From assembly GCF_001677475.2 (NCBI RefSeq), contig NZ_CP015229.1: a stretch of 64,000 bases of DNA. The stretch is one strand, 5' to 3'. The translations under genes and the position numbers were made by a program. Within the stretch, counting starts at the first letter, position 1. Every line of letters begins with the position of its first letter. Positions 9,831 through 44,809 of the stretch are shown here, in pieces. The notes below the pieces were generated by a model. It saw nothing but the letters and a program-made list of their open reading frames with translations. It did not search any database and was not told the DNA's origin. This stretch comes from Escherichia coli (GTDB taxonomy: Bacteria > Pseudomonadota > Gammaproteobacteria > Enterobacterales > Enterobacteriaceae).

Positions 9831-11160
9831 TTTTTCCGCTTTCGATAACGCCCTGCGCTCGCTGGAGTCGATCCCATTAGCCCGCGTCGCCGGGCGACTG
9901 GTGCGCCTTAACGGCATCCTGCTGGAGAGCGTCGGTTGCCCGCTAATGACCGGACAACTGTGCCGCATCGAAAGCGCCAACCACACGCTGATCGACGCGC
10001 AGGCCGTGGGATTTAATCGCGACATCACCTACTTAATGCCGTTTAAACAGCCGGTCGGCTTGATGGCGGGCGCGCGCGTCTTCCCGGAGGAAAAAGCCCA
10101 CGACATCCTGATTGGCGAAAGCTGGCTAGGCCGCGTGGTGAATGGCCTCGGCGAGCCGCTGGATGGCAAAGGGCGCTTAAATGGCAGCGATCTTTTGCCG
10201 CCGCTGCCACCGTCGGTCAATCCCTTAACCCGGCGTTCAGTGGACGAACCGCTGGACGTGGGCGTGAAAGCGATCAACGGCCTGCTGACCATCGGCAAAG
10301 GCCAGCGCGTTGGGCTGATGGCGGGTAGCGGGGTGGGGAAAAGCGTACTGCTGGGGATGATCACCCGCCAGACCAAAGCCGACATCGTGGTGGTTGGGCT
10401 GATTGGCGAACGCGGGCGCGAAGTGAAAGAGTTTATCGACCATTCACTGGGCGAGGACGGGCTGGCGAAGTCCATCGTCGTTGTCGCGCCTGCCGATGAA
10501 TCGCCGCTGATGCGCCTGAAAGCCACCGAACTGTGCCACTCCATCGCCGCCTGGTTTCGCGACCGTGGGCATCACGTTTTACTGCTGGTGGATTCCCTGA
10601 CCCGCTACGCGATGGCGCAGCGTGAAATTGCCCTCTCGCTCGGCGAGCCGCCTGCCACCAAAGGCTATCCGCCATCGGCATTCGGTATGATCCCCAAACT
10701 GGTCGAAAGTGCAGGCAACAGCGAAAGCGCAGGATCGATGACCGCCATCTACACCGTGCTGGCGGAAGGCGACGACCAGCAAGATCCGATTGTAGACTGC
10801 GCCCGCGCGGTGCTGGACGGGCATATCGTATTAACCCGCAAACTGGCGGAAGCGGGGCATTATCCGGCCATTGATATCGGCCAGTCGATCAGCCGCTGTA
10901 TGAACCAGGTTACCAGCCTGGAACATCAGCAATCCGCCCGCGCGTTAAAGCAAAACTACGCCGCCTATATGGAGATCAAACCGCTGATCCCACTCGGCGG
11001 CTACGTGGCAGGCGCGGACGCCAGCGTCGATAAAGCGGTAAAAATGTACCCGACCATCGAGCGATTTTTGCGCCAGGAGATGCGCGAACCCGCCTCCCTC
11101 GAACTGGTGCAAAGCCGCCTGCAAATCCTCTTTCCTGGTGCCAAAAAGGCAGAACAGTAA
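9823..11160 (+). CDS. lfiI: Flagellum-specific ATPase FliI homolog
   Basis: Walker A GSGVGKSVLLGMI; F1/T3SS ATPase family. Confidence 0.9.
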   Translation: MSDFSAFDNALRSLESIPLARVAGRLVRLNGILLESVGCPLMTGQLCRIESANHTLIDAQAVGFNRDITYLMPFKQPVGLMAGARVFPEEKAHDILIGESWLGRVVNGLGEPLDGKGRLNGSDLLPPLPPSVNPLTRRSVDEPLDVGVKAINGLLTIGKGQRVGLMAGSGVGKSVLLGMITRQTKADIVVVGLIGERGREVKEFIDHSLGEDGLAKSIVVVAPADESPLMRLKATELCHSIAAWFRDRGHHVLLLVDSLTRYAMAQREIALSLGEPPATKGYPPSAFGMIPKLVESAGNSESAGSMTAIYTVLAEGDDQQDPIVDCARAVLDGHIVLTRKLAEAGHYPAIDIGQSISRCMNQVTSLEHQQSARALKQNYAAYMEIKPLIPLGGYVAGADASVDKAVKMYPTIERFLRQEMREPASLELVQSRLQILFPGAKKAEQ

Positions 11161-11162
11161 CT

Positions 11163-11597
11163 ATGCGACAAATCATCGACACCCTCGCGCAGTTACAGCG
11201 CCTGCGGGATAAATCGGTCAAGGACAAAACCGTCGAGCTGGCAAAACAGAAACAGATTTGCGCGGGCTATGACAACAATATCAAAGCATTAGGTTACCTG
11301 GTGGAGAAAACCTCTGCGGGCGCGGCGGCATCGGTGGAATCGCTGAAAAACGTCAGCGGCTACAAAGGCACCCTGCGCAAGGTGATCGCCTGGCAAGAGC
11401 AGGAAAAAACGCTGGCTAACATCAAAGCCACGCGAATGCAGAAAAACCTGACGGCGGCGGCCTGCGAAGAGAAAGTGGTGGCTTTGACGCTGGACGACAA
11501 ACGCCGCGAGCAACAAGAAAGCGCCACGGCGAAAGCGCAGAAAGCGGTGGACGATATCGCCGTGCAGTGCTGGTTGCGGCACAAATTAGCGGAGTAG
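11163..11597 (+). CDS. lfiJ: Flagellar export chaperone FliJ homolog
   Basis: 144 aa coiled-coil protein after fliI homolog. Confidence 0.7.
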   Translation: MRQIIDTLAQLQRLRDKSVKDKTVELAKQKQICAGYDNNIKALGYLVEKTSAGAAASVESLKNVSGYKGTLRKVIAWQEQEKTLANIKATRMQKNLTAAACEEKVVALTLDDKRREQQESATAKAQKAVDDIAVQCWLRHKLAE

Positions 11598-11599
11598 CC

Positions 11600-11995
11600 A
11601 TGAAAACGGTCATCACCTTCGGCACCTTCGATGTGTTTCATGTCGGTCATCTGCGCCTTTTACAACGCGCCCGCGCATTGGGCGAGCGGCTGCTGGTCGG
11701 CGTGTCGTCAGACGCCCTGAACATCGCCAAAAAGGGCAGAGCGCCGGTTTACCATCAGGATGAACGCATGGCGATTATCGCCGGGCTGGCGTGTGTGGAT
11801 GGCGTATTTCTTGAGGAATCGCTGGAGCAAAAAGCAGAGTATTTGCGGGGGTACAGTGCGGATATTTTGGTGATGGGTGATGACTGGGCAGGGAAGTTTG
11901 ACAGCTTTGCGTATATTTGTGAGGTGGTGTATTTCCCCCGCACGCCATCGGTGTCGACGACGGGGATTATTGATGTGATTAGGGCGCTTTTATAA
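11600..11995 (+). CDS. Cytidylyltransferase-like protein (glycerol-3-phosphate cytidylyltransferase TagD-like)
   Basis: GTFDVFHVGH (HxGH nucleotidyltransferase motif); ~131 aa; RBS ggag before ATG at 11600. Confidence 0.7.
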   Translation: MKTVITFGTFDVFHVGHLRLLQRARALGERLLVGVSSDALNIAKKGRAPVYHQDERMAIIAGLACVDGVFLEESLEQKAEYLRGYSADILVMGDDWAGKFDSFAYICEVVYFPRTPSVSTTGIIDVIRALL

Positions 11996-12022
11996 AGTGC
12001 TAACACCCAGATGTTTGTTTCT

Positions 12023-12103
12023 TGCCGGATGCGGCGTAAACGCCTTATCCAGCCTACAAGACGTGATCGATCCGTAGGCCTGATAAGCGAAGCGCATCAG
12101 GCA
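12023..12103. repeat. REP/BIME palindromic units
   Basis: gccggatgcggcgtaaacgccttatcc and inverted partner. Confidence 0.8.
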
Positions 12104-12113
12104 CTTCTGTGGT

Positions 12114-14558
12114 TTACCCCAACGCCTCCACAATCACCATTGCCGCCCGTTCCCCCGCCTTGCCATCCATAAACGCGTCGCAATAGTGATGGCGAATCTC
12201 CGCCAGCTTCGCCTGCAACGCCTTCCAGTCAAACGCCTCTGACAGCAGATAACGCAGTTCCGCCATATCGTGAGCGACGGGTAATATCGCGCGGATTCGC
12301 TGATCGGCGCTTTCAGGCGTGGAGTAGCTTTGCTCGCCATCGAGCAGTTCCGTCATGCCCGAAAAGTCGAGCAGGATCACCCGCTTATCAACGTGGATAG
12401 CATCGAAAATAAAGCCGCTGTTATCGGTGAGCACGTAATCGGCCTTTGCCAGTAGCGCCAGCGTGTGACGGGCGGAGTCGGTGCGCTGTTTTAAATGTCT
12501 GCGCGCCAGGGCCAGCGACGCCGCTTCTTCCGGGCGCGCGCAGGTGCCGTGGTGCAGTTTGCAAATCAGGTTCACATCACCGCTTAAGCGCCCCAATTTT
12601 TCTGCCCAGTGGGGCAGGGAGCTTAATGTGCCAAACGTGGGGGCGTAGAGCACCGTAGTTTTACGAAAATCGGGTTGGATATTTTCCGGCAACGAACGAT
12701 CGAAAGTGCCGTTATGCCAGGTGTCGAAGCGCGGGTTGCCAACCACTTTTGCATTGCCGAAATGTTCCAGCGCCTGCTGGCTGTAGTGGCTGTAACACAA
12801 AATGCGCTGATAAAAACGGTTCCAGTCGGCATGGTTCCACGTCTCTTTGGCTAAGCCGTACATGGCGCGGATGTTCACGGGGGAAAGGCCATTGAGCGCA
12901 GGCGTGTGGTAGGGGCTGACCAGGCATTTCACCCGCTGACCGTGTGCCTGCATTTCAGATAAGCGCATACCTTTAAGCTGCGGATCGACGATACTTTTTA
13001 GCGTCGCCAGCATTTCATCAAGAAACGGTTTAAACACGCGGTCGTTGATCACCAGCGTGCAACTCTGCCCCTGCGCCTGTAGGGATGTGATGATGGGGCG
13101 GTACAGCGCGTAGTGAAAGGAGGTTTCCATAAAAAAGCCGATGGTGTCGGCGATGGGTAACGCGGATGGCGTTGTGGCTACGGGCAATTTATTGAAAAAG
13201 TGACTAATATTATCAGTCACTTTTTGCTCGATATCACTAAAGCCCGGTCGCTGGTAACAAAGGCTCGGATAACAGGCCAGCCATTTGTCGGCGCGTAGCA
13301 GCGACTGCCAACACTCTTCAAGTGAGTGCTCATCGTTGCTCATCTGCTGCGCCAGTTGCGGGTAGTAGCGGCTGTTCACCAGATAAGCGCACACTTTGCG
13401 GCAGTCCCGCGCGTGCACCAGCCCCGGCAAACTTTTTAGCATCGTTCCCTGCGAAATTTCGCCGCCAAGGATCATCACCTGCCAGGGAATTTTCGCCAGG
13501 CTGGCCAGCAGAGTGTTCAGCACCTGAATATGTTTCTCCTGCTTGAGAATGACCGCGTCATCTTCCAGTAAAAGGTAGTTTTGCCAGCCCTGCCGTTGCG
13601 CCAGGCGCAGCGCCTGCAAGTGTGACTGCTGGCGGCCCCGTTGACCGTTTTCATCTTCGCAGGCGGCAAGGCGGGTGATCTTCTCAGGCGGAATATGCAG
13701 CAAAGCCAGTTCTTCACGGATCTGTTGTAAGCGATCCGGGCGTTTATCCAGATTCAGCAGAACGATCTGATCGATCACCTGATGGTTGATCGCCTGATGA
13801 TGAGTGGCGTTATGCAGACTCAGATAAGCATTGCGGAGCAGCGGATCGCGGACGATATCCGTAAGCGTCGCGTTTACTGGCGTGCTGGCCCCGAGAATAA
13901 AGTCTTTATCAAAGGTGTTGTGGCTGTGCGAGATACACAGAATCGTGCGCTCACCGGGCAGTTGTAGCGGGTTAACGCTGAAGTTATCGGTGAAACTTTT
14001 CTCTTCACCTAAATTGCAATCGTCATCGTAGCGGTGCTTTTTCAGGTAGTTACGGTGATAGCAAAAGGTGCCGTTGAGGATGTTATGCGAGCCAAAGCAG
14101 CGGCTTTTGAAAATGCGGTTGATATGGCTGTACCAGATGGGGATCTGGTCGGAACCGGAGATGAGCGCCCGGTGTTTTTGCATCATGGCGATGGTGTACG
14201 AGATTTTATCTGCCGGGTAGTAGTCGTCATCGTCCATGCAGAGGATGTATTCGCCGCGCGCCAGTTCGTTGAGCATATTACGTTTTTTGCCCAGCGGCAG
14301 TTTTTCCGGGTGATGGATGTAGCGGATATTGAAGGACTCCGGCTTGCCATTGGTCAGGCGGTCGATGATGTGTTGATGGCTTTGCGGGGAGTCGTCGAGG
14401 ATGACCAGTTCGCGGCGGTCTGCCGGGTAGTCCTGATAGCGGTACATATAGAGCAGGTACAGCAGGAATGCGCCGCGATTCCAGGTTGGCGTGACGACGC
14501 TGACAAATGGTTTTTCGCGGTGGGTGGCGAGTGTTTTGATGATGGTTGGTGTTGGCAT
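12114..14558 (-). CDS. Multidomain glycosyltransferase (GT2-like N-term, GT25-like middle, CDP-glycerol glycerophosphotransferase TagF-like C-term)
   Basis: DDDDYY (DxD) near N-term; LLEDDAV middle; VLYAPTFG (TagF-family LYAPTWR-like) C-term; start set to internal ATG 14556-14558 because upstream extension reads into a GC-rich repeat. Confidence 0.7.
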   Translation of the reverse strand: MPTPTIIKTLATHREKPFVSVVTPTWNRGAFLLYLLYMYRYQDYPADRRELVILDDSPQSHQHIIDRLTNGKPESFNIRYIHHPEKLPLGKKRNMLNELARGEYILCMDDDDYYPADKISYTIAMMQKHRALISGSDQIPIWYSHINRIFKSRCFGSHNILNGTFCYHRNYLKKHRYDDDCNLGEEKSFTDNFSVNPLQLPGERTILCISHSHNTFDKDFILGASTPVNATLTDIVRDPLLRNAYLSLHNATHHQAINHQVIDQIVLLNLDKRPDRLQQIREELALLHIPPEKITRLAACEDENGQRGRQQSHLQALRLAQRQGWQNYLLLEDDAVILKQEKHIQVLNTLLASLAKIPWQVMILGGEISQGTMLKSLPGLVHARDCRKVCAYLVNSRYYPQLAQQMSNDEHSLEECWQSLLRADKWLACYPSLCYQRPGFSDIEQKVTDNISHFFNKLPVATTPSALPIADTIGFFMETSFHYALYRPIITSLQAQGQSCTLVINDRVFKPFLDEMLATLKSIVDPQLKGMRLSEMQAHGQRVKCLVSPYHTPALNGLSPVNIRAMYGLAKETWNHADWNRFYQRILCYSHYSQQALEHFGNAKVVGNPRFDTWHNGTFDRSLPENIQPDFRKTTVLYAPTFGTLSSLPHWAEKLGRLSGDVNLICKLHHGTCARPEEAASLALARRHLKQRTDSARHTLALLAKADYVLTDNSGFIFDAIHVDKRVILLDFSGMTELLDGEQSYSTPESADQRIRAILPVAHDMAELRYLLSEAFDWKALQAKLAEIRHHYCDAFMDGKAGERAAMVIVEALG

Positions 14559-14596
14559 GGTGTTTGGGTGAGTTAAGGGGTGAATGTGATGAATGT

Positions 14597-14725
14597 GCGC
14601 GCTGATGCCCTCACCCCGACCCTCTCCCACAGGGAGAGGGAGAGAACCAGCGCCGATTTTAATACCGTGCTCGATCGGTTCCCTCGCCCCTTTGGGGAGA
14701 GGGTTAGGGTGAGGGGCAAAGCGCG
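14597..14725. repeat. GC-rich ~130-bp nested-palindrome intergenic repeat, copy 1 (boxC/RSA-type)
   Basis: ccctcaccc...ccctctcccacagggagaggg...cccctcgcccctttggggagagggttagggtgaggg; near-identical copies at ~21948 and ~24236. Confidence 0.8.
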
Positions 14726-14736
14726 CACAGAGCGAC

Positions 14737-15705
14737 TCACGTCAGCAGCGAAAACGCTGAAAGCAGCGGCTCTGCCGCACATAACGACTGAATTTGCTGG
14801 CGAATAAACAGCGCATTTTCACTGGTCCGCCAGCGTTCAAACATGGCGAAGAGGGCGAAAATATCCTCCTTCCGCAGCGGAGAACCATCCAGCGTCCATA
14901 AACTGATTAACGTGCGGATAAGATAAAAATCGCACACCAGCGGGAAATAATCCGCCCCGTCTGCCTGCCCGATCGCATCGTGGTAAACGCGGTAGATCAG
15001 GTAATTACGCAAAATCCAGGGTGAAGTGGTGAAATGCTGCTGCCAGGTAGTTTGCCACTGCGCCTGAAGCTGCTGATGTAACAGGGCTTCGCTGTTGGCG
15101 TCATGCAATGTCAGTAAAGAAACCTGCAACGGCAGCGAGGCTTTGCGCGGGCTTTCCGGCAGAATCGACCAGTCAAACGCAAAACTTCCGAGCAGCGTCA
15201 CCAGCTGGCGTGCCAGCTGTGGCACAGGTGGCAACTGGGCGAACTGTGCCTGTAGCGTACCTTTTCGCGCATGGTCGGCCAGCGCCTGCGGCAGCGTCGT
15301 CAAACGGGCCAGAGTATCGCCATTCTTGCCCGGCATTTTACTGGCGCGGGAGAGCAGGATACCGACGGCATACAGTGACAATTCCGGGGTTAAATCGGCG
15401 AGCGTAAGGGTGCTCAAAATGACCTGGTTTAATATCACATCGCGTGCGGAAAGCTCACTGGCACTCTCTTCCATAGACCGATAGGTGAGCTGTAATTCAA
15501 ACGCACTGGCGTCGTTGAGCACCGCTTCGCAGCTTTCTGGCTCTGTAAGCATCAGACTCAGGCGAATTTCATTTTTCCATACCTTGCGGACATACAAAGG
15601 CGAACCAGGATGTTGTGCAATAAATTTGCGCACAAATTCAGGTTCGTAACATTCAATAAAACTCATAGGAGGCTTCCAGTCTTTAATGCTGAACAGGAAT
15701 TGCAA
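14737..15705 (-). CDS. Hypothetical protein, Flag-2-associated
   Basis: 322-aa ORF co-oriented downstream of lfgN; no motif recognised by eye. Confidence 0.5.
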   Translation of the reverse strand: MQFLFSIKDWKPPMSFIECYEPEFVRKFIAQHPGSPLYVRKVWKNEIRLSLMLTEPESCEAVLNDASAFELQLTYRSMEESASELSARDVILNQVILSTLTLADLTPELSLYAVGILLSRASKMPGKNGDTLARLTTLPQALADHARKGTLQAQFAQLPPVPQLARQLVTLLGSFAFDWSILPESPRKASLPLQVSLLTLHDANSEALLHQQLQAQWQTTWQQHFTTSPWILRNYLIYRVYHDAIGQADGADYFPLVCDFYLIRTLISLWTLDGSPLRKEDIFALFAMFERWRTSENALFIRQQIQSLCAAEPLLSAFSLLT

Positions 15706-15793
15706 TTACCGTGCCGGAAAATTTTTTAATATAAAACAAAGAATTGTTTTTCAGGCGGAAAATCCATTTCCGCTATGGGGGAAGGAATGGTCA

Positions 15794-16222
15794 TTATTCC
15801 TGATAAATAAAATCCGCTTCGCTGCCTAAAAAAGACTGAATAAATTCATACTGACGAATCAACAATTCACCGTTTTTATCGTTATACGCCTTACAGCGTT
15901 CGGCTTTTTGTTCAAGTCGTTGCCACAAGCGTTGTGCCGCCTCTTTTTGTACGGCGGGTAACCAGTTAAAAATCTGCTCTAAACCTTCCCGATTGACACT
16001 GACGCCGAGAAATTTCAGCAGGCTGTGGCGTTGTTGGCTGTGGCTGTTTAACTGATCGTAGTGATGCATTATCTCATCATTCACCGCCAGTAATTCCTCA
16101 CTCGCGCGGCGAATCATGCAGATCCGCTGACGATGGAGAAGTTCGCGCAGGGAATCGTAAAGCGCGTCATCGTCACGAATTCCCTGCAACAACGCCTTCA
16201 CCTGTTGTAACCGGATACTCAC
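15794..16222 (-). CDS. lfgN: Flagellar chaperone FlgN-like protein
   Basis: 142 aa, position after flgM homolog. Confidence 0.65.
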   Translation of the reverse strand: MSIRLQQVKALLQGIRDDDALYDSLRELLHRQRICMIRRASEELLAVNDEIMHHYDQLNSHSQQRHSLLKFLGVSVNREGLEQIFNWLPAVQKEAAQRLWQRLEQKAERCKAYNDKNGELLIRQYEFIQSFLGSEADFIYQE

Positions 16223-16234
16223 TTCATCGGCCTC

Positions 16235-16513
16235 TTAGTTCTGGAAAAAACTCAGCATGTCGCTGGCTAACTGTTCGGTGTCCACTTGCAGGCTGCCGGA
16301 GGCCAGCATCGCCTGCATTTGCTCCACTTTGTCGCTGTCGATATCGCTCTCTTGCTGGTCGTTCAGCGTTTGCTGGGCAGACTGCAATCCCGCCTGGGTA
16401 ATGTCGTCGGCGCTTAGCGTCGTGGTGGTGGTCGCTGTGCTTTTACGCGGCTGGCTGGAGCCTGCCGTTGTGGCTGTCGGGCGATTGCCTGGCATAGTCG
16501 GGGTGATTTTCAT
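16235..16513 (-). CDS. lfgM: Anti-sigma-28 factor FlgM homolog
   Basis: 92 aa, Ser/Thr-rich N-term, FlgM-like C-terminal helices. Confidence 0.7.
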   Translation of the reverse strand: MKITPTMPGNRPTATTAGSSQPRKSTATTTTTLSADDITQAGLQSAQQTLNDQQESDIDSDKVEQMQAMLASGSLQVDTEQLASDMLSFFQN

Positions 16514-16593
16514 CGCAACCTCGTCTCGGTATTTAGGTGGGTTACTCCGGTAAAGCGGTTAACAGGCGGCAAAACTTTAATCGCCTGCGCAAA

Positions 16594-17331
16594 TTACTCC
16601 GCGCCTACCGTCGTCACCACGCCGCTTTCCGCCACCATCGCGCTGATGACCCGCTGGCTGCTGGCGTTACGTACTTTCACCATCTCGCCTTTGCGACCAT
16701 TTTTCAGCGCCACGCCGGGCATCGAGGCGGTGATCCCCGCGTTCTGGAAAACAATCATCACCGGCTGATCGCGCTCGACCAGCACCGGAGACACCAGTTC
16801 TTCTTTGGTAAGCGGCCTGCCTGGTTGCAGCGCGTGCTTACTGCTTAAACCAATCGCGTCATCGAGCTCCATCAACACATCGCGACGCTGGGCGCTGACG
16901 TTGTAGGGCTTCAGCTCCACATCATTCGCGGTGAGAGGCGTATCGCGGGCAATCAGTGACTTCGCCATCACCACCGGCACCAGAACATCCGGGCGCACCG
17001 CCACGTTCATCTGCCAGCTTTGCGGGCAACTGACGGTGAAGTTCATGCGGTTGAGGGCGATTTCCGCAGGCGATGTCAGCGTGACGCCGGGTGTTGTAAT
17101 ACAGGGCGCGGCGGTCGCAATCTGCGACGGAATATAGACCTTAAAGGTGTAGCGATAGTCATGCCATTGCCGCTGTTGCGCCAGCGATTCAATTTCCTGG
17201 CTCGCGGCATTCAGCACCTGGGCGTTGACTTGTTCCCGCGCGCTGTGTTGCACGGGGTGGACGGCGGCGTAGCCCGGTAAGGCCAGCACCAGGAGGAAGA
17301 ACAACTTCCGCCTGCAAAATTGAAAACTCAT
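16594..17331 (-). CDS. lfgA: Flagellar basal-body P-ring formation protein FlgA homolog
   Basis: 245 aa with signal peptide; divergent from flgB homolog. Confidence 0.75.
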   Translation of the reverse strand: MSFQFCRRKLFFLLVLALPGYAAVHPVQHSAREQVNAQVLNAASQEIESLAQQRQWHDYRYTFKVYIPSQIATAAPCITTPGVTLTSPAEIALNRMNFTVSCPQSWQMNVAVRPDVLVPVVMAKSLIARDTPLTANDVELKPYNVSAQRRDVLMELDDAIGLSSKHALQPGRPLTKEELVSPVLVERDQPVMIVFQNAGITASMPGVALKNGRKGEMVKVRNASSQRVISAMVAESGVVTTVGAE

Positions 17332-17360
17332 AAACCCTTTCTCATCAGTGACTTAAAAAA

Positions 17361-17377
17361 TGGCACGGCGATTGCTT
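17361..17377 (+). promoter_or_regulatory. Candidate sigma-54 promoter (TGGCAC-N5-TTGCT) for lfgBCDEFG
   Basis: tggcacggcgattgctt ~35 bp upstream of lfgB start; LafK is a sigma-54 activator. Confidence 0.6.
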
Positions 17378-17412
17378 AGCGTATGCGTATTGAAGCAGGA
17401 GTGACGCAGGAA

Positions 17413-17748
17413 ATGGGGATCAGTTTTCAACAGGCATTGGGAGTGCATCCGCAGGCAGTGAAGTTACGTCTTGAGAGGACCGAGCTACTGACTGCGAATC
17501 TGGCGAATGTCGATACGCCAAATTTCAAGGCTAAAGATATTGATTTTGCCAGGGAGATGCAACGGGCAAATAACGTGGCGGTGGATGTCCAGTACCGCGT
17601 GCCGATGCAGCCGTCGGAAGATGGCAACACCGTGGAACTGAACAGCGAACAGGCGCGGTTTTCACAAAATAGTATGGATTATCAAAGCAGTTTGACCTTT
17701 CTGAATCTGCAAATTAGCGGCATCAGAGAGGCCATTGAAGGGAAATAA
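17413..17748 (+). CDS. lfgB: Flagellar basal-body rod protein FlgB homolog
   Basis: ANLANVDTPNFKAKDIDF rod-protein N-terminal motif; start set to ATG 17413. Confidence 0.85.
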   Translation: MGISFQQALGVHPQAVKLRLERTELLTANLANVDTPNFKAKDIDFAREMQRANNVAVDVQYRVPMQPSEDGNTVELNSEQARFSQNSMDYQSSLTFLNLQISGIREAIEGK

Positions 17749-27800: not shown

Positions 27801-28643
27801 TCAGCATTTCTGCACAGTATTTAACAACTTCTCTAAATTCTGATACATCGCGCTATTAATATCGCTGTTCTGCCACTCATCCACATTAAAGGTTAATTGC
27901 CAGCTGCCGTTGCACTGGTTACGCAGAACAATATCGCTTTCCAGTCGGTTACGAACATATTTATAATAGGTTGTCATTGTCATATTATGCGCTGACAATA
28001 AATTATCGAGTTTGTCTTTTCCTGGTGCAAGGGTTTGTGAAAGTAACGGTGCGGAGTTATTTTCTTTTCCAGAACTAAGATGAAATATTTTTATTCTTGG
28101 ACTGTTAATTGACTCTTTTACCAGTTGCGGGGCGTCAGGTGTATTTTTCAAGTGTGAATATCCCACGGTCGAGCCAATAAATATAACAGCTGCGGCTAAC
28201 GCTACCCCCATTATTCCTTTATGTTTTTTTCTAACAGGCACAGGCGGTGTTGTCGAAGATATCTCTTCTGGCACAGTTCCCTGTATCTGGTCGGTAATAA
28301 TCATCGCTTCTGCAGGCGATGACTCCGGCAAAGACACATACTCTTTATTGCACAAGTAACCTTTCTTCGGAATTGTTTTAATAATGTTCTGTTGTTTGCC
28401 ATCATCGTCGATAGCAACCCGCAACGCATGGATCGCCGTCGGCAGGCTGTTTCCGCCGACAATGCGGTTCTTCCATACTTCGGCACATAAATAAGATCGC
28501 GATAAAACCACATCGGCATTTTTTGCTAATGTTTCCAGCAAAATAAAATGGTATTCGCCGAGACGACGTGTTTCACCCGTTTCGCAATGTATTAAGGCAT
28601 TAAGCGACGGGTCCATCCGCCAGTTGTTGATAATAATACTCAT
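27801..28643 (-). CDS. lafZ: ToxR/CadC-like membrane-anchored transcriptional regulator (winged-helix DNA-binding domain + single TM)
   Basis: OmpR/PhoB-type wHTH-like N-term, TM segment GVALAAAVIFIGSTVGY; start set to internal ATG (MSIIINNW...). Confidence 0.6.
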   Translation of the reverse strand: MSIIINNWRMDPSLNALIHCETGETRRLGEYHFILLETLAKNADVVLSRSYLCAEVWKNRIVGGNSLPTAIHALRVAIDDDGKQQNIIKTIPKKGYLCNKEYVSLPESSPAEAMIITDQIQGTVPEEISSTTPPVPVRKKHKGIMGVALAAAVIFIGSTVGYSHLKNTPDAPQLVKESINSPRIKIFHLSSGKENNSAPLLSQTLAPGKDKLDNLLSAHNMTMTTYYKYVRNRLESDIVLRNQCNGSWQLTFNVDEWQNSDINSAMYQNLEKLLNTVQKC

Positions 28644-29128
28644 AGTTGAGTTTACCTTAGCAAGGGATAAATGTTTCCTGATAGTGCTTTGCATAAAGCA
28701 CAGTCTTATACGTCCCTGAGAAGATGATTTTTCTGCGTGATAATTAATATTTTATGGTAATAGGATTATTCTTAATCACTATATGGCGTGGAAATGTAAC
28801 GAAATGACAGGATAGGTACAATAGCCAAATGTGTACTATTTGCAACGCAATGTAAATTTTGGCATCAGTACATTGAGAAGAAAACGCGTTAATTGATGGT
28901 AATCTTAACTATATCAAGCGTTTGATAAAGACATATTTTGATACCTGGCCATGTGGCAGATATTGCTAATAATCTTTTTATCTGAATTTAAACTCTGCTT
29001 TCTTTTAGCTAAAAGTGGCATCGGATAATACGTAGCGAATTTTTTTCATAGCGGTTTTAAGTTTGCTCCCGAGGTGTCGTTTTTACAGGGTATCGAAACG
29101 AAAACGATTAATCCCAAGGAGCAGTATC

Positions 29129-30043
29129 ATGTTATCTATTAACACCAATAACGCCTCAATGGCCGCCGTTAATGCAATCAGCAAAAGCAGCTCTTCTCTG
29201 TCTACATCTATGGAACGCCTGGCAACGGGTAACCGGATTAACTCTTCAGCAGATGATGCGGCGGGCAAACAGATTGCTAACCGTTTAACTGCACAGTCCA
29301 GCGGTATGGGCGTGGCGCTGAGCAACATTAACGATGCCACCGCGATGCTGCAAACCGCTGACAGCATGTTCGACGAAATGTCTGACGTGCTGGGGCGTAT
29401 GAAAGACCTGTCAACTCAGGCAGCGAACGGCACCTACAGCGACGACGACCTGCAGGCGATGCAGGACGAATACGACGAACTGGGTCAGCAGATGTCTGAC
29501 ATGCTGCAAAACACCACCTACGGCGGCACCAACCTGTTCGGTGTTTCCGGCACCAGCAACACCGGTACTGACGGCTTGTTCCAGAGCGCGGTAACTTTCC
29601 AGGTGGGCGCGGAATCTTCTGACACCATGACCGTGAATATTTCAAGCCAACTGAATACGCTGGTGACTGACCTTTCTGCGATCAGCAACTCCTTTAGCGC
29701 GGATCAGGCAGACACCACGGGTACTGCGGGCGTTTCTGGCGGTACTGAACTGACCGCGTCTGGCTCGGCTAACCAGATGATCACCAGCATTTCTACCGCG
29801 ATGGATGATGTTTCTCAGATCCAGTCCAAGCTGGGTGCGTCTATCAACCGTCTGAACGATACCGCCAACAACCTGACCAGTATGCAGGACAACACCGAAG
29901 TCGCTATCGGTAACATTATGGATACCGACTACGCGACGGAAGCGTCCAACATGACCAAACAGCAGGTGCTGATGCAGACCGGCATCACCATGCTGAAACA
30001 GTCCAACAGCATGTCCAGCATGGTTTCCAGCCTGCTGCAGTAA
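29129..30043 (+). CDS. lafA: Lateral flagellin LafA
   Basis: Flagellin N-term (NTNNASMAAVNAISKSSSSL) and C-term (LMQTGITMLKQSNSMSSMVSSLLQ); RBS aagga before ATG 29129. Confidence 0.9.
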   Translation: MLSINTNNASMAAVNAISKSSSSLSTSMERLATGNRINSSADDAAGKQIANRLTAQSSGMGVALSNINDATAMLQTADSMFDEMSDVLGRMKDLSTQAANGTYSDDDLQAMQDEYDELGQQMSDMLQNTTYGGTNLFGVSGTSNTGTDGLFQSAVTFQVGAESSDTMTVNISSQLNTLVTDLSAISNSFSADQADTTGTAGVSGGTELTASGSANQMITSISTAMDDVSQIQSKLGASINRLNDTANNLTSMQDNTEVAIGNIMDTDYATEASNMTKQQVLMQTGITMLKQSNSMSSMVSSLLQ

Positions 30044-39009: not shown

Positions 39010-40161
39010 ATGGAATGGTACATGGGCAAATATATTCGTCCCTTATCCGATGCGGTATTTACCATCGCATCTGATGACCTGTGGATCGAGAGTTTAGCGA
39101 TCCAACAATTACACACCACGGCAAATTTACCCAACATGCATCGCGTAGTGGGGATGCCAGATTTACACCCCGGACGTGGCTACCCGATTGGCGCAGCGTT
39201 CTTCTCCGTAGGTCGTTTTTACCCGGCGCTGGTCGGCAATGATATCGGCTGCGGCATGGCGCTATGGCAAACAGATATTCTCGTGCGCAAGTACAACGCC
39301 GATAAGTTTGAAAAGCGATTATCAGCTTTGGATGACGTTGCTGAAGAAAGCTGGCTGGAGGAAAACCTGCCGTCAGCGTTTGCACTACATCCGTGGCGCA
39401 GCTCGCTTGGCTCCATCGGCGGTGGCAATCACTTCGCTGAACTGCAACAGATTGATCAAATTATCGACGCGGAACTGTTTGCACTGGCAGGTCTGGATGC
39501 GCAGCATCTGCAACTGCTGGTTCATAGCGGATCGCGTGGTCTGGGGCAGTCTGTTTTACAAAAACATATTTCCACATTCTCGCATCATGGTTTGCCGGAA
39601 GGCAGTGATGACGCGATGCGCTATATCGTGGAACATGACGATGCGCTGGCGTTTGCTCGCATTAATCGCCAGATGATCGCCCTGCGCATAATGCAACAGG
39701 TGAAGGCTACGGGAAGTCCGGTTCTGGATGTGGCGCATAACTTCATTACCGCGAGTAAAATTGGCGATCAACAAGGCTGGTTACACCGTAAAGGGGCTGC
39801 GCCAGATGACAGTGGCCTGGTGGTTATCCCCGGTTCACGCGGTGATTACTCATGGCTTGTACAGCCTGTCAGTAGCGAAGAAATATTGCATTCGCTGGCG
39901 CATGGGGCAGGACGTAAATGGGGGCGCACCGAGTGCAAAGGACGGCTGGCAGCGAAATACACGGCGACGCAACTTACGCGTACTGAACTTGGCAGCAGGG
40001 TAATTTGTCGCGATAAACAGCTCATCTTTGAAGAGGCGCCGCAGGCCTATAAATCGGCAGAAAGCGTGGTGCAATGTCTGGTGCAGGCCGGTTTAATTAT
40101 TCCTGTCGCGCGGCTGCGCCCGGTGCTGACACTCAAAAACAGTGGAGGGAAAAAAGGATGA
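39010..40161 (+). CDS. rtcB2: RtcB-family RNA ligase paralog coupled to prfH (RtcB2)
   Basis: 383 aa; RtcB-like metal-binding His/Cys residues ([28 protein letters not shown]); ATGA overlap with prfH. Confidence 0.8.
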
Positions 40162-40772
40162 TCTTGCTACAACTCTCCTCAGCCCAGGGACCGGAAGAAT
40201 GCTGCCTCGCAGTCAAAAAGGCGTTGGACAGGCTGATTAAAGAAGCATCCCAACAGCGTGTTGCGGTAACGGTGCTGGAGACAGAAACGGGCCGCTACTC
40301 TGATTCGCTGCGTTCAGCGCTGGTTTCTCTGGATGGCGACAACGCATGGGCATTAAGCGAAAGCTGGTGCGGCACTATTCAGTGGATTTGTCCGAGTCCG
40401 TATCGGCCTCATCATGGGCGCAAAAACTGGTTTCTGGGCATTGGGCGTTTTACCGCTGATGAGCAGGAACAATCGGATGCAATCCGTTATGAGACGCTGC
40501 GTTCGTCGGGGCCGGGCGGTCAACATGTCAATAAAACCGACTCGGCGGTACGCGCCACGCATCTGGCTACCGGAATTAGTGTGAAGGTTCAGTCAGAGCG
40601 CAGCCAGCATGCTAACAAACGGCTGGCGCGATTGCTGATCGCCTGGAAGCTGGAACAACAGCAACAGGAAAATAGCGCGGTGCTGAAATCGCAGCGGCGA
40701 ATGTTCCATCACCAGATTGAACGTGGCAACCCGCGACGGACATTTACAGGGATGGCTTTTATCGAAGGATAA
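40158..40772 (+). CDS. prfH: Peptide chain release factor homolog PrfH
   Basis: GGQ motif ([16 protein letters not shown]); ~204 aa from ATG 40158. Confidence 0.85.
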
Positions 40773-40784
40773 TGAAGGATGAAA

Positions 40785-40814
40785 CTGCCGGAAGGCGATT
40801 AAACGCCATCCGGC
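40785..40814. terminator. Candidate bidirectional terminator hairpin between prfH and pepD
   Basis: tgccgga...tccggca inverted repeat. Confidence 0.45.
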
Positions 40815-40828
40815 AGCAAATCAAATAA

Positions 40829-42286
40829 TTACTTCGCCGGAATTTCTTTCAGCAGTTCAGTCAGCAGTGTCCAGTAATGACCTACGCTTTCGATGTGAAC
40901 TTGCTCATCCGGAGAGTGTGGACCGGTGATAGTTGGCCCGATAGACACCATGTCCATTTCCGGATACGGTTTTTTGAACAGACCACATTCCAGGCCCGCG
41001 TGGATAATCTGGATGTTCGGCGTCTTGTTGAACAGGCGCTGATAGGTTTCACGTACCAGATGCATCACCGGAGAATTAGCGTCCGGCTGCCAGCCAGGAT
41101 ATGCGCCTTTCGCTTCGGTTTTCGCGCCAGCCAATTTACCCAGCGAATCCAGCATGCTCACCACGTAGTCTTTACCGCTGTCGATCAGAGAACGGATCAG
41201 ACAGTGAATTTCTACGTTATTGTCAGTCATGGTCACCACACCGACGTTCAGGGAGGTTTCGACCACACCTTTTGCCACGTCGGAGTTGCGGATCACACCG
41301 TTCGGGGTGGCGTTCAGTAGACGAATAAAGGTATCGCGAGATTTCGCAATCAGGGCAGCTTTATCGTTCGCTACAGAGTCCAGCAACAAGGCCAGATTTT
41401 TCTCTTTCTCTGCCAGCTCGTTTTTCAGGATATCCTGATAGGTATTCACCAGAGATTTCAGGGCGTCGACTTTATCAGCTGCGACAGCAATGGTCGCAAA
41501 GGCTTCACGCGGGATGGCGTTACGCAGTGTGCCGCCGTTGAAATCAATAAGACGCAGGTCCAGTTCTTCTGCATGACCCGCCAGGAAGCGCACCAGCAGT
41601 TTGTTGGCATTACCCAGGCCAACGTGGATTTCACCGCCGGAGTGACCGCCTTTCAGACCTTTTAAGGTTAACTTGAAGGTTTCAAAACCAGCTGGAACCG
41701 CTTCACGATCTAAATGCAGGTTGGAGGTGAAGTCGATACCCCCCGCACAACCCATGTAGATTTCACCTTCTTCTTCGGAGTCGGTGTTAATCAAAATATC
41801 AGCCTGCAACCAGTTGCTCTGTAAGCCGAACGCACCGTCCATACCTGCTTCTTCGGTCATGGTCAGCAGCACTTCCAGCGGGCCGTGAACCACGTTTTCG
41901 TCAGCCAGAACCGCCAGTGCAGAGGCCATACCAATGCCGTTATCCGCACCCAGCGTGGTACCGCGCGCTTTAACCCATTCGCCATCAATATAAGGCTGGA
42001 TAGGATCTTTAGTGAAGTCATGCACGGTGTCGTTATTTTTCTGCGGCACCATATCGAGGTGGGCCTGCAAGACGACCGGTTTACGATTTTCCATACCTGC
42101 GGTAGCAGGTTTACGAATCAGGATATTACCTACCTGATCGCGTTCGACATGGAAACCTTTCTCTTTTGCCCAACCAACAATGTATTCAGCGAGTTGCTCT
42201 TCATGATAGGACGGGTGAGGAATAGAACAGATTTTGGCAAAAATATCCCACAGCGGCTGTGGAGATAATTGAGACAGTTCAGACAC
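40829..42286 (-). CDS. pepD: Cytosol non-specific dipeptidase (aminoacyl-histidine dipeptidase)
   Basis: 485 aa M20 family peptidase. Confidence 0.9.
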   Translation of the reverse strand: MSELSQLSPQPLWDIFAKICSIPHPSYHEEQLAEYIVGWAKEKGFHVERDQVGNILIRKPATAGMENRKPVVLQAHLDMVPQKNNDTVHDFTKDPIQPYIDGEWVKARGTTLGADNGIGMASALAVLADENVVHGPLEVLLTMTEEAGMDGAFGLQSNWLQADILINTDSEEEGEIYMGCAGGIDFTSNLHLDREAVPAGFETFKLTLKGLKGGHSGGEIHVGLGNANKLLVRFLAGHAEELDLRLIDFNGGTLRNAIPREAFATIAVAADKVDALKSLVNTYQDILKNELAEKEKNLALLLDSVANDKAALIAKSRDTFIRLLNATPNGVIRNSDVAKGVVETSLNVGVVTMTDNNVEIHCLIRSLIDSGKDYVVSMLDSLGKLAGAKTEAKGAYPGWQPDANSPVMHLVRETYQRLFNKTPNIQIIHAGLECGLFKKPYPEMDMVSIGPTITGPHSPDEQVHIESVGHYWTLLTELLKEIPAK

Positions 42287-42546
42287 GTTAAGTCTCCTTG
42301 TCGATCACCCGCAAAACAGTATTGCAGGTCACAGGGTTAGCAGAAAATGTTGTCAACACAAGACAGGCTTGCGAGATATGTTTGAGAATACCACTTTATC
42401 CCGCGTCAGGGAGAGGCAGTGCGTAAAAAGACGCGGACTCATGTGAAATACTGGTTTTTAGTGCGCCAGATCTCTATAATCTCGCGCAACCTATTTTCCC
42501 CTCGAACACTTTTTAAGCCGTAGATAAACAGGCTGGGACACTTCAC

Positions 42547-43005: not shown

Positions 43006-43096
43006 TCTTTTCAACGCCTGGCACTGCCGGGCGTTGTTCTTTTTAACTTCAGGCAGGTTACAATAGTTTCCAGTAAGTATTCTGGAGGCTGCATCC

Positions 43097-44341: not shown

Positions 44342-44800
<459 letters not shown>

Positions 44801-44809
44801 GTGAAATGT

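What the first reader, a model, noticed from the sequence alone, without database searches (positions are those of the whole stretch)
11600..14558. CDP-glycerol synthesis and transfer module inside the flagellar cluster: likely flagellin modification
A TagD-like cytidylyltransferase (HxGH motif FHVGH) sits directly after fliJ. Convergent to it is an 815-aa three-domain enzyme: GT2-like with DDDDYY, a GT25-like middle with LLEDDAV, and a TagF-like C-term with VLYAPTFG. Together these would make CDP-glycerol and transfer glycerol-phosphate and sugars. Embedded in a flagellar locus, the likely substrate is the lateral flagellin (LafA is Ser/Thr-rich in its central region). Glycerol-phosphate decoration of flagellin would be unusual.
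Basis: partly seen in the sequence, partly recalled or inferred. Interest (0 to 1): 0.65.

Follow-up and report, generated by a model that had tools for sequence, protein, structure and literature searches.

The report
Lateral-flagellin sugar and phosphate modification genes
Two genes inside the second (lateral, flag-2) flagellar cluster of an Escherichia genome most likely attach sugars to the lateral flagellin and cap them with phosphate-linked glycerol; the genes and this prediction were published in 2020, but nobody has tested it.

Summary

This is variable region 1 of the enterobacterial flag-2 locus. About 23% of complete E. coli genomes carry it. De Maayer et al. 2020 listed the same genes (TagD, GT2-1, LafV) and proposed teichoic-acid-like parts in the flagellin glycan.

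New here: GT2-1 is a three-domain fusion. In 45 species-level loci the cytidylyltransferase co-occurs almost perfectly with a TagF-type domain, fused or separate (25/0/1/19). In relatives the phosphotransferase partner and its donor-making genes are swapped. The closest tested analogues are C. difficile FtaD and P. aeruginosa FgtA.

Caveats:
- The cytidylyltransferase scores below the TagD equivalog cut-off.
- An invariant Tyr replaces the canonical catalytic His of TagF.
- No mass-spectrometry data exist.

Verdict: a plausible, uncharacterised member of a known kind. Interest is moderate.

The parts
11163..11597 (+). lfiJ (FliJ of the flag-2 system). It is the last core gene of the lfiEFGHIJ cluster and the left border of variable region 1.
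   Evidence: ORF. It is 99% identical to annotated E. coli FliJ.
11600..11995 (+). TagD-like cytidylyltransferase, 131 aa. Predicted reaction: CTP + a phospho-alcohol (most likely sn-glycerol-3-phosphate) gives the CDP-alcohol.
   Evidence: Pfam CTP_transf_like, E 2e-19. TIGR01518 gives 115 bits, below the 165 cut-off. It is 45% identical to B. subtilis TagD 1COZ, E 2e-32. H14/H17 (HxGH), K44 and RTPSVSTT are conserved. dN/dS is 0.08.
11996..12113 (.). Convergent intergenic spacer holding REP/BIME-type repeats. It is not part of the enzyme module.
   Evidence: Sequence. It explains the roughly 101,000 megablast places in E. coli genomes.
12114..14561 (-). 815-aa three-domain enzyme, called GT2-1 by De Maayer 2020. 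It is soluble, with no transmembrane segment.
   Evidence: ORF. AlphaFold2 mean pLDDT is 86.4, with three domains. The maximum 19-residue hydropathy is 1.42. dN/dS is 0.12. E. coli annotates it as 'glycosyltransferase'.
13797..14522 (-). Domain 1, residues about 14-255: GT2-family GT-A fold with D56/D57 and the DxD run D110-D113.
   Evidence: Pfam PF00535, E 1e-17. PDB sequence hits to AvpGT and TarS. These residues are nearly invariant in 35 homologues.
13182..13769 (-). Domain 2, residues about 265-460: GT25-like GT-A fold with E333-D334-D335.
   Evidence: The sequence itself has no Pfam hit, but 8 of 12 relatives hit PF01755. Together with domain 1 it matches the tandem GT-A architecture of COLGALT1 (Foldseek E 2e-17). 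D334 is invariant.
12117..13142 (-). Domain 3, residues about 474-815: TagF-like GT-B phosphotransferase domain. Key residues are Y568, YAPT 639-642, K668-x-H670 and D713.
14737..15666 (-). LafV, 309 aa: a FliB-C-terminal-domain protein predicted to be a flagellin lysine methylase. It lies immediately upstream of the glycosyltransferase on the same strand.
   Evidence: NF038110 FliB, E 8e-13, covering model positions 105-363 only and below the cut-off. Homologues hit PF27117 FliB_C.
15794..16513 (-). lfgN and lfgM: the right border of variable region 1. They are co-oriented with lafV and the glycosyltransferase.
   Evidence: ORFs. E. coli annotation.
29129..30043 (+). lafA, the lateral flagellin (304 aa) and the presumed substrate. 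The central segment 141-235 is 34% Ser+Thr.
   Evidence: NF033376 LafA, E 3e-201. Composition.

Best explanation
The region is variable region 1 of an intact flag-2 (lateral flagella) locus. It encodes a cytoplasmic module that modifies flagellin.

Proposed steps:
1. The small enzyme activates a phospho-alcohol with CTP. The most likely substrate is the abundant metabolite sn-glycerol-3-phosphate, giving CDP-glycerol.
2. The first two domains of the 815-aa enzyme (GT2 plus GT25-like) form a tandem GT-A unit shaped like the protein O-glycosyltransferase COLGALT1. They put one or two sugars on Ser/Thr of the exposed central part of LafA.
3. The C-terminal TagF-like domain transfers the phospho-alcohol from the CDP donor onto that sugar. 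This leaves a phosphodiester-linked cap, a post-glycosylation modification.
4. The modified flagellin is then exported by the flag-2 export apparatus.

Shown here: the gene positions, folds, motifs, purifying selection and co-occurrence.

Inferred: the substrate (LafA), the identity of the donor, the sugars, and whether one unit or a short chain is added.
For: Position:
- The genes lie between lfiJ and lfgN in an intact flag-2 locus with LafA.
- The same arrangement is found in 1269 of 5426 complete E. coli genomes and in Citrobacter, Enterobacter, Pseudescherichia and others.

Folds:
- COLGALT1 is the top Foldseek hit.

Coupling of the cytidylyltransferase to the phosphotransferase:
- The test set was 45 species-level flag-2 loci spanning fliJ to flgN.
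- TagD-like and a TagF-type domain occur together in 25, TagD alone in 0, TagF-type alone in 1, and neither in 19 (Fisher p 8e-12, not corrected for phylogeny).
- The pairing holds whether the TagF-type domain is fused (Escherichia, Citrobacter) or a separate gene (Paramixta L008, Erwinia, Rahnella, Cedecea).

Modular swaps in relatives:
- Burkholderia oklahomensis has the two-domain glycosyltransferase next to a methyltransferase, a SerB-like HAD, an NTP-transferase, a separate Glyphos_transf and a flagellin gene. That is an ftaABCD-like set.
- Plesiomonas pairs the three-domain enzyme with Cj1416/1417/1418-like genes.

Precedent:
- C. difficile FtaD (TagF-like) transfers N-methyl-phosphothreonine from a CDP donor onto O-GlcNAc of flagellin peptides in vitro (bioRxiv 10.64898/2026.02.12.704994).
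- P. aeruginosa PA1091 fuses a glycosyltransferase with such a phosphotransferase (PMC10714395).

Other support:
- The enzymes have no transmembrane segment.
- They are under purifying selection.
- The locus has no Und-P priming transferase, flippase or polymer exporter.
Against: - There is no experimental datum on LafA mass or on either enzyme.
- The cytidylyltransferase is a distinct subfamily: KKGRxPVY, RTPS[VI]STT, and ACVDGVF in place of RYVDEVI. It is 41-45% identical to TagD/TarD, whereas proven Gram-negative GCTs are about 70% identical to TagD (PMC8262930). It falls below the TIGR01518 cut-off.
- The position of TagD K46 is Gly, with Arg next to it.
- In the TagF-like domain the nucleophile-activating His of the WHG motif is replaced by an invariant Tyr568. 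One of the two histidines that define the family is therefore missing (PMC10901376).
- Some three-domain homologues have no TagD in the region: Leminorella, Atlantibacter and MAG UBA7338.
- I did not check whether flag-2 is expressed in this strain.
Confidence: 0.55

Rival explanations
1. Same architecture and same target, but the activated group is not glycerol phosphate. The cytidylyltransferase would activate another phospho-alcohol, such as glycerol-2-phosphate, phosphoethanolamine, a phospho-amino acid or a phospho-sugar alcohol, and the cap on the flagellin glycan would differ accordingly.
For: - The TIGR01518 score is below the cut-off.
- The enzyme belongs to a tight separate subfamily with changed RTxGISTT and RYVDEVI motifs and a changed K46 position.
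- Related TagF-like enzymes on flagellin use CDP-N-methylthreonine rather than CDP-glycerol.
- The Tyr-for-His change puts the C-domain closer to FtaD-like proteins (hhalign probability 99.0%) than to canonical TagB-like ones.
Against: - TagD and TarD are the best hits by far, E 2e-32 against 9e-18 for ethanolamine-phosphate cytidylyltransferase.
- The region has no accessory gene to make an unusual phospho-alcohol. The Fta-type and Cj1416-type clusters do carry such genes.
- The same subfamily also pairs with canonical WHG TagB-like enzymes.
Confidence: 0.2
2. The three-domain enzyme is a polymerase. The glycosyltransferase and phosphotransferase domains would act in alternation to build a teichoic-acid-like poly(glycosyl-glycerol-phosphate) chain, as the TagF-like capsule polymerases Cps3D/Cps7D do. 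The chain would be attached to flagellin or released.
For: - The fusion of glycosyltransferase and TagF-like domains, together with a cytidylyltransferase gene, mirrors the A. pleuropneumoniae Cps3B/Cps3D and Cps7B/Cps7D systems (PMC8262930).
- De Maayer 2020 proposed 'glycopolymers'.
- Some loci carry both a C-domain-type and a TagB-like protein, a possible primer-plus-extender pair.
Against: - The Escherichia region has no polymer export or anchoring genes.
- A long anionic chain on every subunit is hard to reconcile with passage through the narrow export channel and with filament assembly. This point is an inference.
- The tested flagellin analogues add single caps.
Confidence: 0.12
3. The module is cargo that sits in a recombination hot-spot of the flagellar locus. 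It would modify something other than flagellin, for example LPS, another surface glycan or another exported flagellar protein.
For: - VR1 is a documented integration hot-spot that also carries restriction systems, T6SS effectors and fimbrial genes.
- GT2 and GT25 families are typical LPS and capsule enzymes.
- Standalone GT25-like relatives occur outside flagellar loci.
Against: - The two-domain core is found between fliJ and flgN in about 50 species, nearly always beside the FliB-like LafV.
- In Burkholderia it lies directly beside a flagellin gene.
- The proteins are soluble, and the region has no lipid-carrier genes.
- The gene follows lfgMN-lafV on the same strand.
Confidence: 0.08
4. The module is a silent remnant. 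Flag-2 would be cryptic in this lineage, so the genes would have no current function.
For: Earlier work largely regarded flag-2 as non-functional in some enterobacteria (PMC6993521).
Against: - All flag-2 ORFs in the window have full length.
- dN/dS is 0.08-0.22 for the three VR1 genes.
- The region is retained in 23% of complete E. coli genomes.
Confidence: 0.05

Closest known systems
Enterobacterial flag-2 variable region 1 cargo (TagD, GT2-1, LafV) as catalogued by De Maayer, Pillay and Coutinho 2020 (PMC6993521)
   Same: These are the same genes in the same place, between lfiJ and lfgN. The paper counts TagD (133 aa) in 235 strains, GT2-1 (828 aa) in 222 Enterobacteriaceae and LafV in 342, and infers that teichoic-acid-type components are part of the flag-2 flagellin glycan.
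   Different: The paper annotates GT2-1 only as pfam00535. It does not describe the fused GT25-like and TagF-like domains, the TagD/TagF-type co-occurrence, the Tyr-for-His change or the link to FtaD-type chemistry. The allele in this window is only 91% identical in DNA to the nearest E. coli copy.
C. difficile Type A flagellin glycan system (glycosyltransferase CD0240 plus FtaABCD, where FtaD = CD0244)
   Same: A flagellin O-linked sugar is capped through a phosphodiester by a TagF-like phosphotransferase that uses a CDP-activated donor. The donor is made by a cytidylyltransferase encoded in the same flagellar gene cluster.
   Different: In C. difficile the donor is CDP-N-methylthreonine, and making it needs a HAD phosphotransferase, a COG1213-type NTP-transferase and a methyltransferase. 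Here a single TagD-family enzyme is present, and the phosphotransferase is fused to two GT-A domains.
P. aeruginosa b-type flagellin glycosylation, FgtA (PA1091) with PA1088-1090
   Same: The glycosyltransferase and the TagF-like phosphotransferase are fused in one polypeptide that acts on flagellin. The glycan is deoxyhexose-phosphate-N,N-dimethylthreonine.
   Different: The donor pathway differs. I could not retrieve the PA1091 sequence, so I did not test whether its glycosyltransferase part is homologous to the GT2+GT25 unit.
Wall teichoic acid enzymes TagD/TarD and TagF/TagB/TarL of Gram-positive bacteria
   Different: There are no membrane-binding features and no lipid-linked acceptor. 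The first catalytic His (the WH motif) is replaced by Tyr. The cytidylyltransferase scores below the equivalog threshold.
TagF-like capsule polymerases of Gram-negative pathogens (A. pleuropneumoniae Cps3D/Cps7D with GCT Cps3B/7B; H. influenzae Bcs3)
   Same: These are multi-domain enzymes joining glycosyltransferase and TagF-like domains, with a cytidylyltransferase gene alongside, in Gram-negative bacteria.
   Different: They sit in capsule loci with export genes and make long polymers. Their GCTs are about 70% identical to TagD, against 45% here.
Human collagen galactosyltransferase COLGALT1 (GLT25D1)
   Same: A tandem of two GT-A domains with a GT25-type second domain. It is a glycosyltransferase that acts directly on a protein side chain.
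   Different: Sequence identity is only 12-13%. It is a eukaryotic secretory enzyme acting on hydroxylysine, and it has no third domain.

Membership tests
Glycerol-3-phosphate cytidylyltransferase (TagD/TarD/GCT, TIGR01518) | HxGH motif with catalytic His14 and His17 | tested here: met
   H14-V-G-H17 is invariant across the subfamily and in TagD/TarD.
Glycerol-3-phosphate cytidylyltransferase (TagD/TarD/GCT, TIGR01518) | RTxGISTT motif with essential Arg113 | tested here: inconclusive
   The sequence is RTPSVSTT. R, T, S, T and T are kept, while E-G-I becomes P-S-V. Motif definition from PMC8262930.
Glycerol-3-phosphate cytidylyltransferase (TagD/TarD/GCT, TIGR01518) | RYVDEVI dimer-interface motif | tested here: not met
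   The window has ACVDGVF. The subfamily consensus is (K/R)CVDxVF.
Glycerol-3-phosphate cytidylyltransferase (TagD/TarD/GCT, TIGR01518) | Lys44 and Lys46, which contact the phosphates of CDP-glycerol | tested here: inconclusive
   K44 is invariant. HMMER aligns K46 with G46, while MAFFT aligns it with R47, and a 1-2 residue insertion makes the loop ambiguous.
Glycerol-3-phosphate cytidylyltransferase (TagD/TarD/GCT, TIGR01518) | Score above the curated equivalog cut-off | tested here: not met
   115.1 bits against a cut-off of 165.4. NCBI names the orthologues only 'adenylyltransferase/cytidyltransferase family protein'.
Glycerol-3-phosphate cytidylyltransferase (TagD/TarD/GCT, TIGR01518) | Makes CDP-glycerol from CTP and sn-glycerol-3-phosphate | not testable with these tools
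   This needs an enzyme assay.
TagF-like CDP-alcohol phosphotransferases (Pfam PF04464 Glyphos_transf) | GT-B fold closest to TagF/TarL | tested here: met
TagF-like CDP-alcohol phosphotransferases (Pfam PF04464 Glyphos_transf) | Significant match to the family profile | tested here: inconclusive
   The window sequence scores E 0.014 (whole protein) and 0.002 (domain alone). However, 26 of 27 family relatives match at E<=1e-3, the best at 1e-32. hhalign to canonical TagB-like proteins gives probability 98.7%, E 1e-15.
TagF-like CDP-alcohol phosphotransferases (Pfam PF04464 Glyphos_transf) | First invariant His (WH motif; SeTagF H444, TarL H300), which activates the nucleophile | tested here: not met
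   The profile-profile alignment puts the invariant Tyr568 (R-A-M-Y-G) on the His of I-Q-L-W-H-G. FtaD-like neighbours have Tyr in the same column (IPYG). Family definition from PMC10901376.
TagF-like CDP-alcohol phosphotransferases (Pfam PF04464 Glyphos_transf) | Second invariant His (SeTagF H584, TarL H433), which contacts the alpha-phosphate | tested here: met
   K668-L-H670 is invariant in 27 sequences and matches TarL K431-M-H433. HMMER places the two within 2 residues of each other.
TagF-like CDP-alcohol phosphotransferases (Pfam PF04464 Glyphos_transf) | Membrane association and a lipid-linked acceptor | tested here: not met
   There is no hydrophobic segment, and the region has no lipid-carrier genes. 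I did not examine amphipathic helices.
Glycosyltransferase family 2 (PF00535) | Profile match and a DxD motif in a GT-A fold | tested here: met
   PF00535, E 1e-17 over residues 21-158. D110-D113 and D56/D57 are nearly invariant. The GT-A fold is modelled at pLDDT above 90.
Glycosyltransferase family 25 (PF01755) | Profile match to PF01755 | tested here: inconclusive
   The window's middle domain has no hit even at E<=10. However, 8 of 12 aligned relatives (30-36% identical) match at E<=1e-3. COLGALT1, a GT25 enzyme, is the best Foldseek hit.
Flagellin post-glycosylation phosphotransfer systems (C. difficile Fta type, P. aeruginosa b-type) | A glycosyltransferase, a TagF-like phosphotransferase and a CDP-donor-forming nucleotidyltransferase encoded together in a flagellar locus | tested here: met
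   All three activities are predicted within 3 kb between lfiJ and lfgN. Co-occurrence counts are 25/0/1/19.
Flagellin post-glycosylation phosphotransfer systems (C. difficile Fta type, P. aeruginosa b-type) | Flagellin carries a sugar-phosphate-X modification that depends on these genes | not testable with these tools
   I found no mass-spectrometry data for LafA of Escherichia in the held literature.

The most novel reading that the evidence does not exclude
Escherichia-type lateral flagellin carries an O-glycan capped with phosphodiester-linked glycerol phosphate, a modification not yet reported on any flagellin. A single trifunctional cytoplasmic enzyme installs it. Its TagF-like domain belongs to a large branch (over 2,000 cluster representatives) that uses an invariant Tyr instead of the canonical catalytic His and takes protein-bound sugars as acceptors. 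The C-terminal module and its donor-making genes are exchangeable cassettes (glycerol phosphate, methyl-threonine phosphate, phosphoramidate-type or Kdo) that diversify the flagellar surface.
Probability: 0.4. Interest if true: 0.55.

Novelty: new member of a known kind. Interest (0 to 1): 0.38.

Why it matters
- **How common the genes are.** About a quarter of complete E. coli genomes, and many Citrobacter and Enterobacter, carry this module, yet no one has looked at the chemistry of their lateral flagellin.
- **What a positive result would add.** It would put glycerol phosphate on the short list of phosphodiester-linked caps on flagellin glycans. It would also give a simple two-gene system, with the donor made from a central metabolite, for studying how such caps affect filament assembly, surface charge, phage or immune recognition and motility.
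- **Use for the enzyme family.** The Tyr-for-His branch of TagF-like enzymes and the swap of C-terminal modules offer a handle on acceptor and donor specificity in this family.
- **Limits.** The prediction itself is already published, and the kind of system is already known from C. difficile and P. aeruginosa.

Tried and rejected
- A sequence-only PDB search with the whole protein found only GT2 hits. The TagF-like and GT25-like calls needed family profiles and fold search.
- hhalign of the C-domain profile against single sequences was weak: probability 74.5% for the Paramixta TagB-like protein and 8% for the Burkholderia FtaD-like protein. It became decisive only with family alignments on both sides.
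- I tried to fetch C. difficile FtaD or P. aeruginosa PA1091 relatives by searching with the Burkholderia FtaD-like protein. Only 13 relatives came back, those named all Burkholderia, and no C. difficile or P. aeruginosa protein. Whether the tested FtaD has the Tyr therefore remains unchecked.
- P0110 (Pandoraea) had no contig on record.
- Literature searches found no flagellin shown to carry glycerol phosphate and no mass spectrometry of Escherichia LafA.
- I considered a CpgD-type phosphoglycerate cytidylyltransferase and rejected it, because it belongs to the unrelated COG1213 family.
- The promoter and terminator scan of 11000-17500 was uninformative. Promoter-like sites were no more frequent than in shuffled sequence.


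Full report
**What is in the sequence**

The window holds an apparently intact enterobacterial flag-2 (lateral flagella) locus.
- On the + strand: lafK, then lfiE to lfiJ.
- On the - strand: lfgA, lfgM and lfgN.
- On the + strand: lfgB to lfgL.
- Then the laf genes, with LafA at 29129-30043.

Between lfiJ (ends 11597) and lfgN (15794-16222, -) lie three genes:
- a 131-aa cytidylyltransferase (11600-11995, +);
- an 815-aa enzyme (12114-14561, -);
- a 309-aa FliB-C-terminal-domain protein, LafV (14737-15666, -).

The 5.2-kb region is 91% identical in DNA to E. coli flag-2. At least 80% of it is present in 1269 of 5426 complete E. coli genomes. Flanking core genes are 97.8% identical to E. coli.

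All three genes are under purifying selection against the E. coli CI5 orthologues, with dN/dS of 0.08, 0.12 and 0.22.

**The small enzyme**

Support for a TagD-like enzyme:
- It matches CTP_transf_like at E 2e-19.
- Its best PDB relatives are B. subtilis TagD (E 2e-32, 45% identity) and S. aureus TarD.
- The HxGH histidines, K44 and most of the RTxGISTT motif are kept.

Reasons for caution:
- It scores 115 bits against the TIGR01518 equivalog cut-off of 165.
- It belongs to a tight separate subfamily with KKGRxPVY, RTPS[VI]STT and CVDxVF. Members are 64-77% identical to the window protein in this alignment and come from Enterobacterales and, by their source labels, from Methylibium and Ornithinibacter MAGs.
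- Proven Gram-negative GCTs (Cps3B/7B) are about 70% identical to TagD (PMC8262930).
- The TagD K46 position is ambiguous: Gly by HMMER, or the neighbouring Arg by MAFFT.

Glycerol-3-phosphate is therefore the most likely substrate but is not shown. One supporting argument is parsimony. The region has no gene for making an unusual phospho-alcohol, whereas related clusters that use other donors do carry such genes.

**The large enzyme**

An AlphaFold2 model built on 35 homologues has mean pLDDT 86.4. It shows three domains: residues 14-255, 265-460 and 474-815. The protein has no hydrophobic segment.

Domain 1 is a clear GT2.
- PF00535 matches at E 1e-17.
- D56/D57 and D110-D113 are nearly invariant.

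Domain 2 is GT25-like.
- It has no Pfam hit of its own.
- It is 30-36% identical to standalone proteins, and 8 of 12 of those relatives hit PF01755.
- D334 of the EDD motif is invariant.

Domains 1 and 2 together give the best Foldseek match of the whole protein. That match is human collagen galactosyltransferase COLGALT1, a tandem GT-A enzyme that glycosylates a protein side chain (E 2e-17, about 560 columns).

Domain 3 is TagF-like.
- A 15-sequence profile finds TarL in the PDB at E 1e-3, aligning YAPTFG, KLHH and TDNSGFIFDA with FAPTFRG, KMHP and SDYSSLIYEY.
- The same profile finds 2339 cluster representatives at E<=1e-3.
- Of 27 aligned members, 26 hit Pfam Glyphos_transf (best 1e-32) and only 3 hit Epimerase_2.

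**A departure from canonical TagF**

The TagF-like family is defined by two invariant histidines (PMC10901376).
- The second is present as the invariant K668-x-H670.
- The first, the nucleophile-activating His of the WH motif, is not present.

Profile-profile alignment to seven canonical TagB-like proteins from other flag-2 loci (probability 98.7%, E 1e-15) puts the invariant Tyr568 (RAMYG) on the His of IQLWHG. FtaD-like proteins from Burkholderia, Kluyvera and Pantoea loci (probability 99.0%) carry a Tyr in the same column (IPYG).

The C-domain therefore works like a TagF-type phosphotransferase but fails one defining membership feature. It groups with the branch found beside flagellin genes. 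I could not retrieve the experimentally characterised FtaD or PA1091 to check their residue.

**Context in other genomes**

I scanned one genome per species and kept 75 loci. Among 45 flag-2 loci that span fliJ to flgN, the counts were:

| TagD-like gene | TagF-type domain | Loci |
|---|---|---|
| present | present | 25 |
| present | absent | 0 |
| absent | present | 1 |
| absent | absent | 19 |

Fisher p is 8e-12, not corrected for phylogeny.

The pairing holds whether the TagF-type domain is fused or separate.
- Fused: Escherichia, Pseudocitrobacter, Citrobacter, Enterobacter and Pseudescherichia.
- Separate gene: Paramixta, Erwinia, Rahnella, Cedecea and Buttiauxella.

The two-domain glycosyltransferase core is the constant element. 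It is nearly always next to LafV.

The third module and its donor genes are swapped in relatives.
- Burkholderia oklahomensis has the core glycosyltransferase next to LafV, a methyltransferase, a SerB-like HAD, an NTP-transferase, a separate Glyphos_transf and a flagellin gene. This looks like the C. difficile ftaABCD set.
- Plesiomonas pairs a three-domain homologue with genes resembling C. jejuni Cj1416/1417/1418.
- One lineage replaces the C-domain with a KpsC/S-like Capsule_synth domain.

Exceptions:
- Leminorella and Atlantibacter have divergent C-domains (40% identity) and no TagD in the region.
- MAG UBA7338 has a 57%-identical C-domain without TagD.
- Locus L039 has TagD, but I recognised no TagF-type gene in the part examined.

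**Mechanism proposed**

1. The cytidylyltransferase makes a CDP-alcohol, probably CDP-glycerol.
2. The GT2+GT25 unit O-glycosylates Ser/Thr of the exposed centre of LafA in the cytoplasm. Residues 141-235 are 34% Ser+Thr.
3. The TagF-like domain caps the sugar with the phospho-alcohol.

The precedent is direct. C. difficile FtaD, a TagF-like protein, transfers N-methyl-phosphothreonine from CDP-N-methylthreonine to O-GlcNAc on flagellin peptides in vitro. P. aeruginosa FgtA fuses the glycosyltransferase and the phosphotransferase.

The fold, motifs, position, selection and co-occurrence are shown. The substrate, the donor, the sugars and the chain length are inferred.

**Comparison with what is known, and novelty**

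De Maayer et al. 2020 (PMC6993521) already named this region VR1. They listed TagD (235 strains), GT2-1 (828 aa, 222 strains, annotated only as pfam00535), GT2-3 (474 aa), TagB1-8, SerB, KpsS-like proteins and LafV. They proposed that teichoic-acid-type components belong to the flag-2 flagellin glycan. NCBI already names some orthologues 'bifunctional glycosyltransferase family 2 protein/CDP-glycerol:glycerophosphate glycerophosphotransferase'.

This analysis adds five things:
- the three-domain anatomy of GT2-1;
- the COLGALT1-like tandem;
- the Tyr-for-His branch;
- the co-occurrence numbers;
- the modular-swap picture, and the link to FtaD-type chemistry.

I found no report of glycerol phosphate on a flagellin, and none on the mass of Escherichia LafA.

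I file this as an uncharacterised member of a known kind, of moderate interest and directly testable by mass spectrometry.

Noticed in passing
window 11996-12113: The 118-nt spacer between the convergent cytidylyltransferase and glycosyltransferase genes contains REP/BIME-type repeats (GCCGGATGCGGCG...CTTATCCAGCCTAC and an inverted partner). This explains why a megablast of 11100-16300 hit about 101,000 places in E. coli genomes, with a median of 21 per genome.
   Followed up: partly
window 14594-14729: A GC-rich imperfect palindrome lies between lafV and the glycosyltransferase start. It has 50-nt arms, 74% complementary, 36 nt apart, with CCCTCTCCC...GGGAGAGGG cores. From memory it resembles the small intergenic repeat families of E. 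coli. I did not identify it, and its effect on read-through from lafV into the glycosyltransferase is unknown.
   Followed up: partly
window 14737-15666 (-) and 29129-30043 (+): LafV matches only positions 105-363 of the 373-position FliB lysine-methylase model and scores below the cut-off, so the FliB N-terminal part is missing. LafA has only 6 lysines. Whether LafV is a lysine methylase at all is open.
   Followed up: no
window 11100-16300 versus 40000-48000: The flag-2 region is only 91% identical to the closest of 5426 complete E. coli genomes, while the neighbouring core genes (pepD, frsA, proBA, phoE) are 97.8% identical. The flag-2 allele looks older than, or imported relative to, its chromosomal background.
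   Followed up: partly
L003 8001-15618 (Plesiomonas sp. MAG): A three-domain homologue (37% identity) sits beside genes resembling the C. jejuni CDP-glutamine/cytidine-diphosphoramidate pathway. These are an NTP-transferase, a gamma-glutamyl-CDP-amidate-hydrolase-like GATase (E 4e-32, below cut-off) and a PRK05849 PEP-utilising enzyme. motAB and a sigma factor are nearby. This hints at a phosphoramidate-type cap on a flagellin glycan.
   Followed up: partly
L004 8001-14617 (Burkholderia oklahomensis): The secondary flagellar cluster carries the two-domain glycosyltransferase, LafV-like, methyltransferase, SerB-like HAD, NTP-transferase and Glyphos_transf genes directly upstream of a 300-aa flagellin. 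This looks like an ftaABCD-type set. Close homologues of the phosphotransferase occur in B. pseudomallei and B. thailandensis.
   Followed up: partly
L060 9995-11845 and L068 9995-11845 (Pantoea wallisii; an Enterobacteriaceae MAG): A 616-aa protein fuses a GT25-like domain directly to an FtaD-like phosphotransferase domain, with no GT2 domain. I detected no flagellar genes within the 10-kb flanks by my queries.
   Followed up: no
L002 8001-10628 (Logan ERR10124956): A homologue keeps the GT2+GT25 core (76% identity) but carries a Capsule_synth (KpsC/KpsS-like) domain in place of the TagF-like domain. Its neighbours are a hexapeptide acyltransferase and a small GT25, and there is no TagD. A Kdo-type addition may replace the phosphate cap there.
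   Followed up: no
window 27801-28694 (-): A 297-aa ORF with a CadC/ToxR-like winged-helix DNA-binding domain lies just upstream of lafA in a low-GC stretch (39.6% GC against about 56% around it). This position matches the flag-2 variable region 2 of De Maayer 2020.
   Followed up: no
window 49918-53127 (-): A 1069-aa ORF lies in a low-GC island (39-45% GC) outside the flagellar locus. I did not examine it.
   Followed up: no
proteins P0184, P0235 and many metagenomic sequences: The flag-2-type cytidylyltransferase subfamily is unusually conserved. Sequences labelled as Actinobacteria (Ornithinibacter) and Betaproteobacteria (Methylibium) MAGs are 70-73% identical over the full length. I did not examine their genomic context or function outside flagellar loci.
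   Followed up: no
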